From Tricharina praecox (taxonomy: Eukaryota), in NCBI RefSeq assembly GCF_024521635.1, contig NW_026250407.1, positions 496,001 through 560,000 of the forward strand: a stretch of 64,000 nt of DNA. The letters run 5' to 3'. Under the pieces are notes generated by a model. It had not been told where the DNA came from, did not search any database, and saw nothing but the letters and a program-made list of their open reading frames with translations. Positions 4,109 through 12,181 of the stretch are shown here, in pieces. The position numbers and the translations under genes are program-made. The stretch's first letter is position 1. Each line of letters begins with the position of its first letter.

Positions 4109-6748
4109 TTACTGAGTCTTCTTGAACACCTTGGCAACGGGGAATTTGCTAGCAGCCTTCTCCTTGTACTCCTTCTCGTCCACCCGAAGCGCATGCAAGA
4201 GCTTCAGTCCCTCCACCGCGTCGGTCAGGGTGATGTTTTCATCGTCCAGTGTCGACAGGAGGATAGACACATCCTTCTCTTCTGGTCTGAAAAGATGACG
4301 TATCCGCAGGGCTATGATCCCGTTAGCTCAAGTTAATATGGATGGATATAGTAGGGTTGGTTACCAGAACGAACATGCGCAAAACTGTTCTTGTTGCTCT
4401 CCAAGAAGTCCTCGTTGCACTTGGACAGATCTGTGTCCTTGGATAGAACCTTCTCAACCCCCTCAAGCAGCGCATCTCTCGACTCGGGAGCCTTGAACTC
4501 TTCGTCCTCGGACAGGAGGTTGACAGCGTGACGCATTCTGATCTTGCACTCATGTACTCTAGGATCTTCTGGTGCCAACTCGATCGCCTTATTCAGGCAT
4601 TGGAGCGCCAGCGTCCATTTACGCCTGCGCAGCTGAACCTCGAATCCGGCCAACTGGGTTTCTAAATGCTCCGGAGCATTCTCCAACAGAGGCTTGAGCC
4701 ATTTGGCGGCTTCCTCCAGTGGCTTGTCCGTGCGGGCCAACTGGATTCCGTGGGGATCCGCATCCACTTTCTTAACCTCGGGATCCGCCACCTGTGCGTT
4801 TTTATTCTTTTCCTCCTTCTTTGCCACCGCATGAGCAGCAGCCCTCTCCTGTGCCTTCTGTGCCTCCTTCTTCGCCTTCTTCATCGCGCGTTTGCGGTCC
4901 GCATCCGGCATGGACTCGTACTTCGCTGCTTCGCCGTCTGCCATAGCGCCTTGGGCAAGGACTGGAATGTCGATGAGCTTAAGGTAAGCTTGGATGGCGC
5001 CCAACGCCGCGCGTGAAAACATCGGGTGAGAGCGGAGAGTGTCTTCCCACTTCAACATGTCGATGTAAGCCCTGATCTGGCCCTTCCTGAGGGAGAAGGG
5101 GTGGAAGTCGATTTGGTCCTCTGTCCAAACTTCGAAGATCGTCCAGAGGGACTGGTATCGCTTCAATGCGAGACCGAGCTGGTTCTGTCGGAGGTAGGAT
5201 TCCGCGTCTTCGGCGATGTACCAGACGCACTGCATTTCCAAGAGGTCGCCAAGCGGCCCGCCAACGGCTTCGCTCCTAGTGAACAGGCTCATCGTCTTCA
5301 GTGCCTCGTCGTTTTGGTCGTTGCGGAGCTGGTACTTCGCAGTCTTGGTATTGATGTATCGGTCGCTCTTATCCAGGTTACGCGCCTCGTCCATCTTTTG
5401 TGCGGCTTTTTGAAGGTCCCCGGCGTGCTTGTATACCCTAGCGACGGTCATATGCAGCTCCACGGTTTCCGGCGCAAGTTCAAGTGCTTCGTTGAGGTAC
5501 TCGAGTGCCTTGTCCATGTTCCGTGTGCGGTAGTGATCGTAGTGCTGAGTAAGGAAATACAGCGTCCACAGTCTGAAGAGCGAAGGTTTCGATGAACCGT
5601 TAGATTCACCAGATGCTACCTCCGTTTTCTGCGATTCATAATACGAGTTGACGAGATCGAATATTGTTTCCCGCTTGGCAGTATCGGCGTAGAGGGCCCT
5701 GATGTTGGCGAATGTCGACGGGACTCCCTTCTTCAACTTAGCCTGCAGGTAGGTGTCTGCCGCTTGCCGGAACTCGTCACCGTCGAGGAAATCCAGGGGA
5801 ATTCGTCTCGGTGCGTCGCTTCTCTCGAATTTGCTGGCATATTCGTCGTAAAGCGCCTTGGCTTCCTTCCGGTTATCGGCCTCAATTCCCATAGCCTTCT
5901 CCAGCCCTGTGTAGTATGCTCGTTGCTCGGGGTTCCTGTCGAGCAGTGCCCTGTAGGCTTTCTGAGCATCCTCATTCCGGCCCAGCTTCAGCAGGTACTC
6001 CGCCCTGCTCTCCAGCAACGCAACCTTGTCCAGACAGTTCTTGGCGATAGTCTCCAGATGCTCCAGCGCCCTTTCAGTGTCTCCAGACTCCGCAATGATC
6101 CTGTTCCTGTACAAGCATGCCTCCCAGTGCTCGGTGTCCCACTTCGGCACCTTCCCCTCGACTGTCGACTCGTATTTAACCAGGACCTTCTCCGCTTCGT
6201 CGTACTGGCCGCCCAGGTGGTAAGCGATCGCGACGGCCGTCCAGTTCTGTCTCAGCTGCGGACGAGTCTGCAGAATCGTCTTGCGCGTCTCCACCAAACC
6301 ATCGTAGTTCCTCATCTGGATCTGCAGCAGGGCAAGATCCCGCAGGATCTGCTGCGAGTCTGGCTCGAACCGCAACGCCATCTTGTAAGCTTTGATCGAC
6401 TCCTCATAGTTCTTCTCTGACTTGTAGAGAAGACCGTAAACATGCCAGCAGACGTGAGACTTCATGTCGTACTTCAGCGCTTCCTTGGCGATCGCAAAGG
6501 CTTCCTCCGTTTTACCCAACGAGTTGGTTATCAATCCCTTCATTGCTAGGGTCTCGCCGTGCTTCGGGTTCTTTCGTAGGATTTGCTGCGAGTGACAGTT
6601 AGTGCGCCTGACTTCTTCTCGACAAGCGGAGTTGGAGTTGGTAGCTGACATCGCACGCCTTCAGGCCCTTTTTGTATTGCTTCTGTTCATAGCACTTGAC
6701 CACAGTGCGGAATAGGGCGGCATCTTTCGATGCTAAAAGGGTCGGCAT
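4109..6748 (-). CDS. NAT1: NatA N-terminal acetyltransferase auxiliary subunit (TPR protein)
   Basis: Exons 6748-6650, 6585-4365 and 4311-4109 with GT-AG introns and CTAAC branch points. Spliced N-terminus [50 protein letters not shown]; conserved SHVCWHVYGL, DRYINTK and EDQIDFHPFSLRKG motifs. Confidence 0.96.
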
Positions 6749-8825: not shown

Positions 8826-9303
8826 GATTTTTGGTCGAGTTTGGAGAAAGGTGGTTGTTTAGGTGAGTAGAGAGGTTTGGGACGAGATAGTTGTGGAGAA
8901 GGAGAGGGGTTCGGGGGATAGATATGGCCGAGCTTGCTTGTAACAGGATGTGGCAACTGCGCGCTGAGCAAGAAACACAGCCTGCCAAGGGTCTCCGGAA
9001 TGCGGCTTAGGTGGCTTAGGTGGCTTAGGTGGCTGCTGAGAATTTAGCCGACGGCGCCAAGACACGCCAATGAGATCGAAACATCAAAGTTCGATTTTTT
9101 AAAGAGAACTTTTCCTCCGTCTTCACTGCCATCCTCTCCACCATCCGCAGCAACAACAACGAATCACCGCAACCGCACACATTCTCTGCCGTTGTCACTA
9201 CCATTCCAGCTACCATTGGTCTAATGAATAGCTAAACCTACAGCAATTGTTTGACTGAGTATGTCTTCTCCAACCATTTGTCTCGCCAGCCATGCTTCAT
9301 TAA

Positions 9304-9377
9304 GTGATGATACACAAAACATTGAACAATCCAACTCCTATTTTTCTGTGAGGACGATGCCTCAGGGCTTTCTCTGA
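9304..9377 (+). ncRNA. Box C/D snoRNA 1; D' guide to the LSU rRNA helix 92 region (predicted Gm, SNORD69-like)
   Basis: C box GTGATGA 9304, D box CTGA 9374, C' GTGAGGA 9348, terminal stem ATTAAG/CTTGAT. Guide TGAACAATCCAAC is complementary to conserved LSU GUUGGAUUGUUCA. Confidence 0.8.
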
Positions 9378-9621
9378 TCTTGATCATTTACGGTTTTGCT
9401 GCAGTACCAGTTGGGAACATTCGCTAATGTTACAACAGGAGGACAGAAGAGACATGAAAATGTTAACGTTTGTGAGGCCGGCAGTTTCACACCATTGAGC
9501 CATGTGGCTTCAGATGGCCCACTTTTCCGGCATTTGAACTACATGGTTTGATCTTGACAGGTTGGTAACCCCGCATCAATCGCCCCGCAATTGTGCCCGA
9601 ATATCACCCCCTCCCGTTGGG

Positions 9622-9704
9622 TTGATGATACCTTGACATGCTTTGCTCTTTCGGAATATATTTTGTCGAACCTTGTCTATTTTATAAGTTTCAGCCTTGT
9701 CTGA
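9622..9704 (+). ncRNA. snR41: Box C/D snoRNA 2, snR41-like (18S Gm1126, yeast numbering)
   Basis: C box TTGATGA, D box CTGA 9701, perfect terminal stem CGTTGG/CCAACG. Guide TAAGTTTCAGCCTTG is complementary to 18S CAAGGCUGAAACUUA; the D+5 position falls on a G. Confidence 0.88.
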
Positions 9705-9834
9705 CCAACGTCTTTGCTACTCGCATTATTACTTGACGCTTCCTCAATCGTTACTTCGATGATGGCTAACCCGAGTCTACTCTCTAGGTACATACATTAT
9801 CCTCATCTCCTCAATTACTGCAACTATCAATCAC

Positions 9835-9954
9835 ATGACGAATTTTGAACGAACGGGCGGACATATCACTTCCTCTCACCGCTTGCGGTAGCAGCGCCCA
9901 ATGTACAACCGGGTTGCCGGGAGGGGGCATTTGATGATTTCGATCGTCACCTGA
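9835..9954 (+). ncRNA. snR70: Box C/D snoRNA 3, snR70-like (18S Cm1639)
   Basis: C box ATGACGA, D box CTGA 9951, C' TTGATGA 9931, 8-bp terminal stem TATCAATC/GATTGATA. D' guide ACGGGCGG (9853-9860) pairs with 18S CCGCCCGU; accessory TGTACAA pairs with the adjacent UUGUACA. Confidence 0.82.
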
Positions 9955-10129
9955 TCCGATTGATACTGTTGCTATTTTGCATCACTGGCAAATCGACTAT
10001 TGGCACGTACGAGGTGCTAACTTTCCGCTCGCCATAGAACACTGGAACACACACTACTTGCCGTGTGCGAGCATCACATGTGGTACGTGTTCATACTCCC
10101 ACCCCCTTTTTTCCATACTCAAGCCCTTT

Positions 10130-10252
10130 ATGATGATACTTTACAAATATGTATTCACACTGTCTTACCTTCTTTCCCACCGCTTGCGGTAACCGCGTCT
10201 CATTCACACCGAGGCGCCGGGATGGGAGTCTTGATTATACCTCAACTACTGA
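10130..10252 (+). ncRNA. Box C/D snoRNA 4 carrying the snR51-type LSU Um2729 guide
   Basis: C box ATGATGA, D' CTTA 10164, C' TTGATTA 10231, D CTGA 10249. Guide GTATTCACACTG (10151-10162) is complementary to LSU CAGUGUGAAUAC. Confidence 0.8.
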
Positions 10253-10435
10253 TCCTACCCTGCATCCTTTGTTATCATGAATCAGCACAACGTAAGAGTT
10301 CAAGTGCTGACAATTCTCCTCAAGTACCCTCAACCAATAGCCCACGTTGTATTACAGCGGGGAAGCGGCCCCCAAATGCCGCTAGAGTTGCATGGTTAGT
10401 TCTTATCCTCCCCCACCATTGCAGCCCCCAGTCAA

Positions 10436-10506
10436 ATGATGAAAATATCTTTTTTGGGTGATCCTTCGGGAGAAGAGCCTTCCAAAATCTGATTTAATGA
10501 GCCTGA
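10436..10506 (+). ncRNA. snR51: Box C/D snoRNA 5, snR51-like (18S Am100)
   Basis: C box ATGATGA, D box CTGA 10503, perfect terminal stem CAGTCAAA/TTTGACTG. Guide CTGATTTAATGAGC is complementary to 18S GCUCAUUAAAUCAG; the D+5 position falls on an A. Confidence 0.88.
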
Positions 10507-11372
10507 ATTTGACTGCTTCCTTTACATATCCTTATCTTCCCATGTCAACTTTATTAGCACTTAGCTAACTAGATTAAAGACAGGGCAATTACTCACCAAG
10601 AGCTGTGTGGAAACACAGTTAACTACGATTAACAATTAAATTCGTTTGTCACTCGTTTACCTGCATTGTGTGATCACCACTTATGAGACATCGATTGCCT
10701 GACCAATTGGTCGCACCGCCCCATTGCAAGTGACGCATGGAGAGAGGTGAAGAACGGAGTGACTCTCCTATCAGTCTGGCATTTGTGTGTACAGCACCGA
10801 AGGAAACCTACCTACGCGTGCTGAAGGAATTTATTCTATCGTGCCAAGATGAATACACTCGTACCCTACGAACACCACCTCCTAATAATTGGAGGATGGC
10901 GTACCTAAGGTCCGATACATATTTTTGTGCTGGGGTTTGGGATCCTTTTTCTGAAGAGTTTGGCGTTTCGTTGGACACTGATATGATATTGAGGGTCTTA
11001 ATCACCACGACACTTTCCATTTCATAGACAGAATATAATTGAATTGAATTGACTGAGCAAATCTTGAACTGTGCCTTTTAACTTCCATCACAATCTTAAT
11101 GACTCGCTTGACAGGTGACCCCTCTCATCGGCCACTCGGCCCGCCCAGTTGCATTCGGTGAGCCGCACTAGGTACATCAACTGGTATTACTCCACCATAC
11201 GAGGGAATCATTAAATACAATAAAAATGTTCAACCGAGGAATTCCCCGACGAATCACAAACATTCCTCGACATCCCCATATGTAGAGTAGTCAATCCAAC
11301 CCAACCCAAATGATCCAAACTCCAGCCCGCCCAACCAAGTCATCCAGCCATAACTAAAGCACAATGAAACCA

Positions 11373-12181
11373 CTACACCAACTCCCTCAAGTACCTCTCG
11401 ACGACGCCCGCCACGCGCTCACAGCCCAGCACCTCATCATGTCGTCCCACGACCTTAACGACCCTCAACCCGCCGCCCACGCCGATCGTATCCTCACACC
11501 TTCCTTTCATCTCCTCGGTCTGCCGCCAGCTCAGTAGCTCATCGCTATCGCTCTGCGCGAGCACCACGAGGCCCGTATACCCGCCCAGCGCCAGCGGCGC
11601 CGGCCACCCCGCCTGCTCCGCGCCAAACGCCCCCTCCACGAACCCCCGGTAGTCCGGGTACTCCGCCACCAGCGCCCGGAGATCGTAGATCCCCTCAAGG
11701 CCGTAGATTGCCCGCGGGGGGTGCTGCGCACTGGCGAGCGCCTGGAACGCCAGCGTCGCACCGGCGGAGTGCCCAACTAGAGCGTACTCGCGCATGCCGT
11801 AGTGCGTGCGCAGGTGCTGAAGTGCGGCCTGTACGTCGTCTATGTGGTCCGGGTGCCGGATTGGGGAGGGGTGGGAGCTGGATAGGCGGTAGTTGAGGGA
11901 TGCGGCGTTGATGGGCATGGGCAGCGAGGCGCTGAGGAGGTGGTTGATCAGCGGGTTGCCGGCTGAGCAGGTGATGCGGGGGTCGCGCCAGGCGCCGCCG
12001 TGTATGAAGCTGTGACACCGAGTCAGCGGGATCGTCTACGGAGGGGGGGAGGGGGAAAGTACATCACCCATAATGCGGACGGCGACTTGGTGAGGTGGTA
12101 GACATCGAGGGTTTGGAGCTCGTGGGAGGCGTATGATACAGTCGTCTTGATAGCTTCTATATCGACTCTGCTCGTTGCCAT
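11373..12181 (-). CDS. BNA7: Kynurenine formamidase (alpha/beta hydrolase)
   Basis: Exons 12181-12063 and 12009-11373, 251 aa. IFIHGGAWRDP oxyanion motif, GHSAG nucleophile elbow, GIYDL, C-terminal GRHDE. Confidence 0.9.

What the first reader, a model, noticed from the sequence alone, without database searches (positions are those of the whole stretch)
9835..10506. snR51's two guides are split across two snoRNAs, one built on an snR70-like scaffold
Known: yeast snR51 guides both 18S Am100 and 25S Um2729. Seen: here the Um2729 guide is in snoRNA 4 and the Am100 guide in snoRNA 5. snoRNAs 3 and 4 share their D'-C' insert: identical CACCGCTTGCGGTA (9877-9890 and 10178-10191, an ACCG-CUUG-CGGU tetraloop hairpin), shared GCCGGGA and similar spacing. 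Where snoRNA 3 has an accessory guide (TGTACAA), snoRNA 4 has ATTCACAC, a repeat of its own guide. Inference: duplication or gene conversion followed by guide switching, i.e. a modular snoRNA scaffold.
Basis: partly seen in the sequence, partly recalled or inferred. Interest (0 to 1): 0.7.

Follow-up and report, generated by a model that had tools for sequence, protein, structure and literature searches.

The report
snoRNA built from two snoRNAs' parts
In this cup-fungus genome a small RNA that directs one chemical mark on the large ribosomal RNA carries the structured middle part of its neighbour, a different guide RNA, showing that such guides can evolve by swapping ready-made parts.

Summary
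Window 9297-10515 holds five intron-encoded box C/D snoRNAs in one spliced non-coding host gene. snoRNA 3 (9831-9956) is the snR70 orthologue. snoRNA 4 (10126-10254) carries the LSU Um2729-type guide. snoRNA 5 (10429-10515) carries only the 18S Am100 guide. snoRNAs 3 and 4 share about 65 nt between D' and C' (local score 39; shuffles 15.2 +/- 2.2; 0 of 2000 reach it).

This domain folds into a three-helix junction. Covariation supports it: 90% of cells paired against 41-56% in slid controls, and 10 pairs changed on both sides. It occurs in snR70 of other fungi, and in snoRNA 4 of two further Pyronemataceae taxa from metagenomes.

The split of the guides is not new: N. crassa CD6, S. pombe snR51-I and human U41/U57 are in print. 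A. fumigatus and 14 metagenome loci keep both guides in one snoRNA, so the split here is probably derived.

The domain sharing appeared in no paper I could search. Gene conversion is not supported. The loop repeat ATTCACAC occurs only in this lineage and pairs with the same rRNA site as the guide, so an accessory-guide role is doubtful. Verdict: a new variant of a known kind, of moderate interest.

The parts
9142..10800 (+). Spliced non-coding snoRNA host gene. Exons 9142-9258, 9439-9558, 10036-10081, 10324-10393 and 10579 to beyond 10800; the 5' end is not defined. Introns 9259-9438, 9559-10035, 10082-10323 and 10394-10578.
   Evidence: GT..AG joints in RNA-derived contigs of three runs from three studies: 9258>9439, 9558>10036 (also 9558>9786), 10081>10324 and 10393>10579.
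9297..9383 (+). snoRNA 1, box C/D (C box 9304-9310, D box 9374-9377). Its D'-side guide 9323-9335 is complementary to the LSU A-loop region. It resembles N. crassa CD17 / U45.
   Evidence: Weak Rfam match to snoR44_J54 (E 3.1). 13-bp complementarity to LSU 2917-2929 of L293. Liu 2009 Table 1 lists CD17 with 26S-Gm2875 in the same cluster.
9616..9709 (+). snoRNA 2, snR41 / Afu_455 / N. crassa CD9 orthologue (18S Gm1126-type D guide).
   Evidence: Rfam Afu_455 44.1 bits, E 1.5e-5; snR41 31.9 bits. 16-bp duplex with 18S 1125-1140 of L293.
9831..9956 (+). snoRNA 3, snR70 orthologue. C box 9835-9841, guide 9853-9860 (18S Cm1639 type), D' CATA 9862-9865, P1 9869-9877/9919-9927, P2 9878-9881/9886-9889 (loop CUUG), P3 9894-9899/9911-9917 with loop 9900-9910 holding TGTACAA, C' 9932-9937, D box 9951-9954.
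   Evidence: Rfam snR70 20.8 bits, E 0.18. The guide pairs with CCGCCCGT and the loop with TTGTACA two bases upstream in 18S. A metatranscriptome contig joins 9956 to 9831, which gives both ends. Model R1 scores 90.6 bits.
10126..10254 (+). snoRNA 4, the LSU Um2729-type guide snoRNA with an snR70-type domain. C box 10130-10136, guide 10150-10163, D' CTTA 10164-10167, P1 10170-10178/10219-10227, P2 10179-10182/10187-10190 (loop CUUG), P3 10195-10201/10211-10217, loop 10202-10210 (ATTCACACC), C' TGATTA 10232-10237, D box 10249-10252. The ends are estimated.
   Evidence: 13-bp Watson-Crick duplex with a fungal LSU fragment, with the target U at the fifth position from D'. The same 11-mer guide sits before D' in 14 fused snR51-type loci. 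Model R1 scores 82 bits. An unbroken RNA-run contig covers 10106-10260. Orthologues in L204/L215 and L189/L211/L256. No Rfam match on this strand at E up to 10.
10429..10515 (+). snoRNA 5, snR51/SNORD57 orthologue that keeps only the 18S Am100 guide. Terminal stem 10429-10436/10508-10515, C box 10436-10442, D'-like GTGA 10458-10461, guide 10489-10502, D box 10503-10506.
   Evidence: Rfam SNORD57 29.4 bits, E 0.0012. 14 of 14 complementarity to 18S 97-110 of L293, with the fifth base from the D box opposite an A. No copy of the Um2729 guide.

Best explanation
Shown: snoRNA 4 is a working, intron-encoded box C/D methylation guide of a Pyronemataceae (Pezizales) fungus. Its 5' guide (10150-10163) pairs with the large-subunit rRNA at the site homologous to yeast U2729 and places that U five positions from the D' box (CUUA). 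Between D' and C' it carries a three-helix junction homologous to the one in the neighbouring snR70 orthologue: P1 closes the domain, P2 is a CUUG-capped hairpin and P3 is a hairpin with a variable loop.

Inferred: P1 brings the divergent D' and C' boxes together as the stem of a C'/D' kink-turn-like motif, so the domain serves as a portable structural cassette for a D'-side guide.

Inferred from distribution: an ancestor had snR41-snR70-snR51 with both guides in snR51. A duplication, or an unequal recombination joining an snR51 5' part to an snR70 3' part, inserted a new snoRNA plus intron between snR70 and snR51. The Um2729 guide was then lost from snR51 (snoRNA 5).

In snR70 the P3 loop holds GUACAA, which pairs next to the 18S target. 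In snoRNA 4 this loop is freed and drifts. The guide repeat seen in the window is a lineage-specific state of unknown value.
For: Similarity: score 39 against shuffles at 15.2 +/- 2.2, 0 of 2000 reaching it.

Structure: my three-helix model on 9 sequences gives 90.6% of 180 cells paired against 42-55% when partners are slid. Eight pairs change on both sides, against 1-4 in the slid controls. 0 of 500 shuffles reach the covariation score. RNAalifold predicts the same three helices on its own, with 19 pairs, 7 of them with double changes. On 12 distinct model-aligned sequences, 90.0% of cells are paired and 10 pairs change on both sides.

Specificity: the covariance model finds 19 hits in 254,393 bases from 78 sources. 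All 19 are snoRNA 3 or snoRNA 4 domains, including three snR70 domains not used to build it (E 2e-9, 8e-9, 1.7e-8). It finds nothing else in the window.

Orthologues: snoRNA 4 keeps the guide, D' CTTA and the domain in two other taxa whose loci are 75% and 57% identical overall. These taxa share the downstream kynurenine formamidase gene (81% and 62% amino-acid identity). The nearest named relatives are Trichophaea (window) and Wilcoxina (L189).

Target: 13-bp duplex with the fungal LSU fragment L296, with the U at position 5. The 11-mer ATTCACACTGT directly precedes D' in all 14 fused loci. Yeast snR51 guides U2729 and A100 (passage of PMC3938493). N. crassa CD6 guides 26S-Um2687.

Expression: the host introns are spliced as predicted, and a contig covers snoRNA 4 with its insert.

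Precedent: van Nues 2011 moved the snR70 D'-C' region into an artificial snoRNA, where it directed methylation; re-targeting its loop raised methylation five-fold (passages of PMC3116282).
Against: No methylation data exist for this organism. I could not obtain a Pyronemataceae LSU; the duplex was checked on a yeast-type fungal fragment (L296), and plant-type LSUs differ at two positions within the site. Only three taxa carry snoRNA 4, so its covariation rests on few independent events, and alignment A3 is fitted to the model. In L189 the C box reads GUGAUUA and the D box AUGA, both off consensus. N. crassa CD6 is given as 76 nt, not about 129 nt, so the domain may be absent outside Pezizales, or that RNA may be processed differently. 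Flanks give no signal on how the gene arose. The RNA contigs do not define the mature ends of snoRNA 4.
Confidence: 0.78

Rival explanations
1. The roughly 65-nt insert of snoRNA 4 is a small spliceosomal intron nested in the snoRNA, removed to give a short snoRNA of the N. crassa CD6 size. This follows the idea of an 'intron B' inserted into snR51 of Euascomycetes (Luo 2013).
For: Luo 2013 report an intron inserted into intronic snR51 between the antisense element and box D (sections 7 and 8 and passages of PMC3596301). The insert begins with GT (10162-10163), holds GGTAAC (10188-10193) and has an AG at 10227-10228. N. crassa CD6 is listed as 76 nt and 'exon-encoded'.
Against: The insert has the covarying three-helix fold of the snR70 domain, which nobody treats as an intron. 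The GT belongs to the rRNA-complementary guide and is equally present in fused snoRNAs without an insert. GTCTTA lacks the G at position 5 that four of the five host 5' splice sites have. The TAAC is not kept in L189, which reads GGTAGT. A contig from an RNA-derived run covers 10106-10260 unbroken. I could not see Luo's figures or supplements, so their intron B may be a different element.
Confidence: 0.05
2. The shared 14-mer and domain are kept alike by ongoing gene conversion between the two neighbouring snoRNAs.
For: The two copies lie 300 bp apart on one strand and share an exact 14-mer. The within-taxon paralogue identity in the window (71%) is the highest of the three taxa.
Against: Within-taxon paralogue identity (71, 63, 67%) is no higher than cross-taxon paralogue identity (57-70%). 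Orthologues of snoRNA 3 in the three Pyronemataceae taxa are 78-90% identical. In L204 the two hairpins differ (UUCG against CCUG loops), and in L189/L211 the closing pair differs. The window's 14-mer equals the one in snoRNA 3 of L189, so it is the conserved state.
Confidence: 0.07
3. The P3 loop of snoRNA 4 in the window (AUUCACAC) is a functional second rRNA-binding element. It would act as a landing pad that captures the target site and hands it to the guide, re-targeted as in the van Nues experiment.
For: There is an exact 8-mer copy of the guide core in the loop position where snR70 holds its accessory element. It gives an 8-bp match to GTGTGAAT of a fungal LSU. By my own arithmetic, not a tool result, an 8-mer of the 13-nt guide recurs somewhere in a 66-nt insert with probability about 0.005.
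Against: It pairs with the same bases as the guide (-1 to +6 around the target U), so both cannot bind one rRNA at once. Known extra base-pairing is to flanking sequence. The loops of L204 (the closest relative, sharing only CACAC) and of L189 have no complementarity next to the target.
Confidence: 0.12
4. snoRNA 4 is a decaying duplicate of snR70 with no function, and the Um2729 guide match is fortuitous.
For: It has no Rfam match. Its domain evolves faster than that of snoRNA 3 (61-75% against 78-90%). The boxes in L189 are off consensus.
Against: The 13-nt guide plus D' is identical in three taxa whose loci are only 57-75% identical overall. It equals the D' guide of 14 fused snR51-type loci. 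snoRNA 5 has lost that guide, so no other guide for this site is seen in the cluster.
Confidence: 0.03

Closest known systems
S. cerevisiae snR70 (Rfam RF01238) and its D'-C' stem-loop with extra base-pairing (van Nues et al. 2011, EMBO J, PMC3116282)
   Same: snoRNA 3 has the same 18S guide and a loop (GUACAA) that pairs just upstream of the target. snoRNA 4 has the same kind of structured D'-C' domain. The yeast domain was shown to work when moved into another snoRNA.
   Different: snoRNA 4 guides a different rRNA and site, and its loop has no conserved complementarity next to its target. Neither RNA reaches the Rfam threshold: snoRNA 3 scores 20.8 against 55 bits, and snoRNA 4 has no hit.
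S. cerevisiae snR51 / A. fumigatus Afu-277 (one snoRNA guiding LSU Um2729 and 18S Am100)
   Same: The same two guides, in the same snR41-snR70-snR51 cluster. snoRNA 5 keeps the C box, a GTGA D'-like box and the Am100 guide. The guide of snoRNA 4 equals the D' guide of the fused forms.
   Different: Here the two guides sit in two separate snoRNAs in separate introns, and the Um2729 guide is joined to an snR70-type domain.
N. crassa CD6 (Liu et al. 2009, PMC2780460; family CD_6 of Canzler et al. 2018), S. pombe snR51-I, human U41 (SNORD41) and U57 (SNORD57)
   Same: A separate snoRNA with a D'-side guide for the U2729-equivalent, in N. crassa in cluster III with CD9 and CD17. Human U41 and U57 carry the two guides separately.
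   Different: CD6 is listed as 76 nt and exon-encoded. snoRNA 4 is about 129 nt and intronic. I could not compare sequences, because no N. crassa sequence was at hand and the supplements were closed.
Guide translocations and recombinant snoRNAs in fungi (snR78/72 recombinant, Luo 2013; clans CD_5 and CD_19, Canzler 2018)
   Same: Guides move between snoRNA backbones during fungal evolution.
   Different: Those cases concern the exchange of guides between ordinary backbones. Here a large structured internal domain is what the two families share.

Membership tests
Box C/D snoRNA (snoRNA 4) | C box RUGAUGA near the 5' end and D box CUGA near the 3' end | tested here: met
   ATGATGA at 10130-10136 and CTGA at 10249-10252. 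Kept in L204. L189 has GUGAUUA and AUGA.
Box C/D snoRNA (snoRNA 4) | At least 10 bp of guide complementarity ending next to a D or D' box, with the target at the fifth position | tested here: met
   13 Watson-Crick pairs with the fungal LSU fragment L296, and the U opposite A10159 is the fifth base before CTTA. The organism's own LSU was not available.
Box C/D snoRNA (snoRNA 4) | Stable RNA of defined size bound by Snu13, Nop56, Nop58 and Nop1 | not testable with these tools
   The only support is a contig from an RNA-derived run covering 10106-10260. Contigs do not give ends or abundance.
snR70 (RF01238) | Guide for 18S Cm1639 (ACGGGCGG before a divergent D') | tested here: not met
   Present in snoRNA 3 (9853-9860). 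Absent from snoRNA 4, whose guide is TGTATTCACACTGT.
snR70 (RF01238) | Rfam gathering score (55 bits) | tested here: not met
   snoRNA 3 scores 20.8 bits (E 0.18). snoRNA 4 has no match at E up to 10.
snR70 (RF01238) | Structured D'-C' region whose loop pairs next to the target | tested here: inconclusive
   The structure is met in both snoRNAs. Loop pairing is met in snoRNA 3 (TTGTACA). It is not met in snoRNA 4, where the loop pairs with the guide's own site in the window and with nothing adjacent in L204 or L189.
snR51 / SNORD57 (RF00274 clan) | D-box guide for 18S Am100 | tested here: met
   snoRNA 5 matches 14 of 14 to 18S 97-110 of L293, with an A at the fifth position. SNORD57 scores 29.4 bits, below the gathering score of 47.
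snR51 / SNORD57 (RF00274 clan) | D' guide for LSU Um2729 in the same RNA (yeast snR51 form) | tested here: not met
   No copy in 10429-10515; the guide sits in snoRNA 4.
N. crassa CD6 family (CD_6) | D' guide for the U2729-equivalent, in the cluster with the snR41-II and U45-like snoRNAs | tested here: met
   Guide. Neighbours with CD9-type and CD17-type guides. Compared with Liu 2009 Table 1 and text.
N. crassa CD6 family (CD_6) | Length of about 76 nt and sequence similarity to CD6 | not testable with these tools
The length here, about 129 nt, differs.
Spliceosomal intron (for the insert 10164-10228) | Splice junction seen in RNA, a consensus 5' splice site and a conserved branch site | tested here: not met
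   An unbroken contig covers the insert, and no contig shows a junction across it (contigs can miss rare forms). GTCTTA lacks G at +5. TAAC is not kept in L189.

The most novel reading that the evidence does not exclude
The snR70 D'-C' three-way junction is a naturally transferable 'methylation cassette'. In Pyronemataceae it was joined to the Um2729 guide, creating a new snoRNA and letting snR51 drop that guide. In the window's lineage the cassette's loop has been rewritten to the new target (8 of 8 to GUGUGAAU, which contains the target U). This would be a natural counterpart of the laboratory re-targeting by van Nues et al., with the loop acting as a landing pad that captures the site before the guide takes over.
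Probability: 0.15. Interest if true: 0.6.

Novelty: new variant of a known kind. Interest (0 to 1): 0.4.

Why it matters
Methylation guides are usually thought to evolve by point changes in short antisense elements or by whole-gene duplication. Here a large, structured internal domain is shared by two snoRNAs with different targets. The yeast version of that domain has been shown to work when transplanted. This gives a natural example of modular assembly of a guide RNA, and a plausible route by which a two-guide snoRNA splits into two genes.

It offers a simple test system, since Pyronema-type cup fungi can be grown and transformed. One could ask what the three-way junction does for a D'-side guide with very divergent C'/D' boxes.

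It also exposes an annotation gap. None of the five snoRNAs reaches an Rfam gathering score, and snoRNA 4 matches no family at all.

Tried and rejected
**The window's own genome.** None is held.

**Getting rRNA by tools.**
- The 18S 14-mer in viral contigs gave 117 chance hits and no rDNA.
- ITS4-site and LR11-site primers in viral contigs gave 0 hits.
- The ITS4-site primer in genome contigs gave 62 loci of contaminant eukaryote rDNA in bacterial assemblies.
- Family search RF02543 on those genomes failed twice for machine reasons, so I used the LR11 primer as a pattern instead.
- Of the 20 genomes searched, 6 gave an LSU 3' part. Four are plant-type (CAGTACGAATAC), one is of another kind (L295) and one is fungal yeast-type (L296).
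- On the plant rDNA the 13-mer site matched with 3 mismatches, which is no better than chance (3 matches against 1.1 expected). That check says nothing.

**Flank similarity.** I compared the flanks to tell duplication from recombination. None was significant: downstream of snoRNA 3 against downstream of snoRNA 4 scored 13 against a shuffle mean of 16.

**Extra base-pairing of the snoRNA 4 loops next to the target.** None was found on L296.

**Junction across the insert.** The three runs laid report no junction across the snoRNA 4 insert. Contigs can miss rare forms, so this is not proof of absence.

**Other negative or unavailable results.**
- Earlier findings of this scan: nothing by place or by sequence.
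I therefore could not see the N. crassa CD6 sequence or what exactly Luo's 'intron B' is.
- L238 and L260 (divergent snR70) were left out of alignments A1 and A2 and were not found by model R1 at E up to 1.
- Short loci L261-L289 (300-nt flanks) added no further split-type locus.
- The taxonomy of the fused-type metagenome loci was not determined, because they hold only short ORFs.
Full report
**What is there.**
Window 9142 to beyond 10800 (+ strand) is a spliced, non-coding host gene. Contigs of three sequencing runs from three studies carry GT..AG joints at 9258>9439, 9558>10036 (and 9558>9786), 10081>10324 and 10393>10579. One run is on record as RNA; for the other two RNA is a guess, but they hold these spliced forms. 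Each of the four introns holds one or two box C/D snoRNAs.
- snoRNA 1 (9297-9383) has 13 bp of complementarity to the LSU A-loop region. It resembles N. crassa CD17.
- snoRNA 2 (9616-9709) matches Rfam Afu_455 (44.1 bits, E 1.5e-5) and snR41.
- snoRNA 3 (9831-9956) matches snR70 weakly (20.8 bits, E 0.18).
- snoRNA 4 (about 10126-10254) has no Rfam match on its strand at E up to 10.
- snoRNA 5 (10429-10515) matches SNORD57 (29.4 bits, E 0.0012).

No Rfam family reaches its gathering score anywhere in the window. The organism is a member of the Pezizales near Pyronemataceae. The NatA auxiliary subunit encoded at 4333-6651 is 80% identical to that of Trichophaea hybrida and 74% to that of Pyronema omphalodes.

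**The observation.**
The similarity between snoRNAs 3 and 4 is about 65 nt at 71-76% identity with constant spacing. The local score is 39, against a mean of 15.2 +/- 2.2 for dinucleotide shuffles (maximum 26), and 0 of 2000 shuffles reach it. The other nine pairs of snoRNAs in the cluster score 13-20. The similarity is limited to the region between D' and C'. The flanks and the 5' and 3' parts show none.

**Guides.**
- The guide of snoRNA 5 (10489-10502) is complementary to 14 of 14 bases of 18S 97-110 in a complete rDNA unit fetched as L293. An A lies opposite the fifth base from the D box.
- The guide of snoRNA 3 pairs with CCGCCCGT. Its loop element TGTACAA pairs with TTGTACA two bases upstream. 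This matches the arrangement described for yeast snR70 (passages of van Nues 2011).
- For snoRNA 4 I first obtained only plant-type LSUs, which differ at two bases within the site. A fungal, yeast-type LSU fragment (L296) reads TTTTCAGTGTGAATACAAACC.
- The guide of snoRNA 4 forms 13 Watson-Crick pairs with that fragment (12 in L189). The U lies opposite the fifth base before CTTA (10164-10167), which is therefore the D' box.
- The same 11-mer ATTCACACTGT, followed directly by GTGA, TTGA or ATGA, occurs about 53 nt upstream of the Am100 guide in 14 metagenome loci. These are fused, snR51-type snoRNAs.
- That yeast snR51 guides both A100 and U2729 is stated in a passage of PMC3938493.

**Relatives.**
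A scan of metagenome contigs with the 18-mer 'Am100 guide plus D box' returned 109 loci, 80 of them with full flanks. Nineteen hold the Um2729-type 11-mer:
- 14 are of the fused type.
- 5 are of the split type seen in the window: L204/L215 (75% identical to the window over the cluster) and L189/L211/L256 (57%).
- The other 90 show neither arrangement, and I did not classify them.

The split-type loci share the downstream kynurenine formamidase gene with the window (81% and 62% amino-acid identity). The L189 copy is closest to that of Wilcoxina mikolae (84%). All three split-type taxa are therefore Pyronemataceae-like. Fused-type loci L187/L188/L203/L219 and L238 share the start of the upstream gene with the window, so they are the same locus in other fungi.

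In both other split-type taxa, snoRNA 4 keeps the guide, the D' CTTA and the domain. snoRNA 5 there lacks the Um2729 guide but keeps a GTGA box at the D' position.

**The shared domain.**
The minimum-free-energy fold of snoRNA 4 gives a three-way junction:
- P1, 10170-10178 with 10219-10227.
- P2, ACCG-CUUG-CGGU.
- P3, 10195-10201 with 10211-10217, closing a 9-nt loop.

I tested this structure on an alignment of nine D'-C' segments: snoRNAs 3 and 4 of the three taxa, a variant from L211, and two fused-type snR70.
- 90.6% of 180 cells are standard pairs, against 42-55% when partners are slid by 1-3 columns.
- Eight pairs change on both sides, against 1-4 in the slid controls.
- 0 of 500 shuffles reach the covariation score.
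- RNAalifold predicts the same helices unaided.

Examples of compensation:
- The P2 closing pair is G-C, G-U (L189) or A-U (L211, L187).
- P3 reads GCGUCUC/GAGGCGC in the window, GCGCCC/GGGACGC in L204 and UGACUC/GGGUCA in L189.

A covariance model built from these nine sequences found 19 hits in 254,393 bases from 78 sources. All 19 are domains of snoRNA 3 or snoRNA 4. Three of them are fused-type snR70 not used for training (E 2e-9 to 1.7e-8). There was nothing else in the window, and the two most divergent snR70 (L238, L260) were missed. On the 12 distinct model-aligned sequences, 90.0% of cells pair and 10 pairs change on both sides. That alignment is fitted to the model, which favours the structure.

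**History.**
- In the domain core, orthologues of snoRNA 3 among the three Pyronemataceae taxa are 78-90% identical, and those of snoRNA 4 are 61-75%.
- Paralogues within a taxon are 63-71% identical, and paralogues across taxa 57-70%.
- The copy is therefore older than the three taxa, and there is no sign of continuing gene conversion.
- The fused form occurs in yeast, in A. fumigatus and in the 14 metagenome loci. A. fumigatus Afu-277 is 100 nt with predicted targets Um2706 in 26S and Am97 in 18S, and lies in the cluster with Afu-455 (Table 1 passage of PMC2377427).
- Separate guides are listed for N. crassa (CD6, 76 nt, 26S-Um2687, 'exon'), S. pombe (snR51-I) and human (U41) (Liu 2009 Table 1).
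- The split as such is therefore in print. In this lineage it is most simply a derived state.
- Whether snoRNA 4 arose by duplication of snR70 with guide replacement, or by unequal recombination joining the 5' part of snR51 to the 3' part of snR70, cannot be decided.

**The loop.**
In snoRNA 3 the P3 loop keeps GUACAA in all taxa. In snoRNA 4 it reads AUUCACACC (window), CGCCCACAC (L204) and CUUGAAACC (L189). The window's 8-mer equals the core of its own guide and pairs with GTGTGAAT at -1 to +6 around the target U, the same bases as the guide. The other two loops have no complementarity near the target on L296. An accessory-guide role like that of snR70 is therefore not supported. A lineage-specific role cannot be excluded.

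**The nested-intron reading.**
Luo 2013 (sections 7 and 8 and passages) describe an 'intron B' inserted into snR51 of Euascomycetes. I could not see their figures or supplements, so I cannot say whether it is this domain. Here the insert has the covarying snR70 fold. A contig from a run that holds spliced host transcripts covers 10106-10260 unbroken. The splice-like signals are weak or not conserved.

**Literature searches.**
- 'snR51, snR70, snoRNA' returned 12 papers.
- The Neurospora snoRNA search returned 98 papers, of which 15 were listed.
- 'snR70' alone returned 35 papers, of which 34 were listed.

I read passages or sections of seven papers. None of the passages seen describes an snR70-type domain in the Um2729 guide snoRNA. 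Titles of the rest do not suggest it.

**Verdict.**
The modular-scaffold inference is supported for the domain, but not for gene conversion or for the accessory loop. The finding is a new variant of a known kind (box C/D snoRNAs with exchanged guides), of moderate interest.

Noticed in passing
window 9786-9794: The 3' splice site of the snoRNA 2 intron (joint 9558>9786) is followed at once by GTACAT, the start of the snoRNA 3 intron. The two introns thus abut with no exon between them. Contigs show both the one-intron joint and the two-intron joint (9558>10036). This fits the 'intron-intron' clusters and stepwise or alternative-acceptor splicing described by Luo 2013.
   Followed up: partly
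window 9831-9956: A soil metatranscriptome contig joins 9956 back to 9831 (a permuted junction of 126 nt). These are exactly the predicted ends of snoRNA 3. It may reflect a circular or end-ligated snoRNA molecule, or a library artefact.
   Followed up: no
window 9003-9035 and 9040-9060: About 110 nt upstream of the first exon lie three tandem copies of GGCTTAGGT, which resembles a telomere repeat. They are followed by TTTAGCCGAC, which is also present upstream of the cluster in L189. These are possible promoter elements of the snoRNA host gene.
   Followed up: no
window 10450-10458 with 10482-10488: In snoRNA 5, the place where fused relatives hold the Um2729 guide is a U-run plus GG. It can pair with CCAAAA just before the Am100 guide (centroid fold). 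The U-run and the A-run are kept in all three split-type taxa.
   Followed up: partly
window 9938-9950 with 9836-9841: In snoRNA 3 the segment before the D box (TCGTCA) is complementary to the C-box region (TGACGA). It is conserved in all snR70 orthologues seen, and the Rfam snR70 model also draws this pairing. There is no rRNA target for this segment.
   Followed up: no
L118-L179, L180, L290-L296 (bacterial genome records): Sixty-two or more contigs in public bacterial and MAG assemblies carry eukaryote rDNA of plant type or fungal type. One is a complete 8.7-kb rDNA unit (L293). These are evidently contamination of those assemblies.
   Followed up: partly
window 4333-6651 (-), 11376-12035 (-): The neighbouring genes are the NatA auxiliary subunit (PF12569, E 1.8e-194) upstream and a kynurenine formamidase-like alpha/beta hydrolase downstream. 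The latter is syntenic with the snoRNA cluster in the two related taxa.
   Followed up: partly
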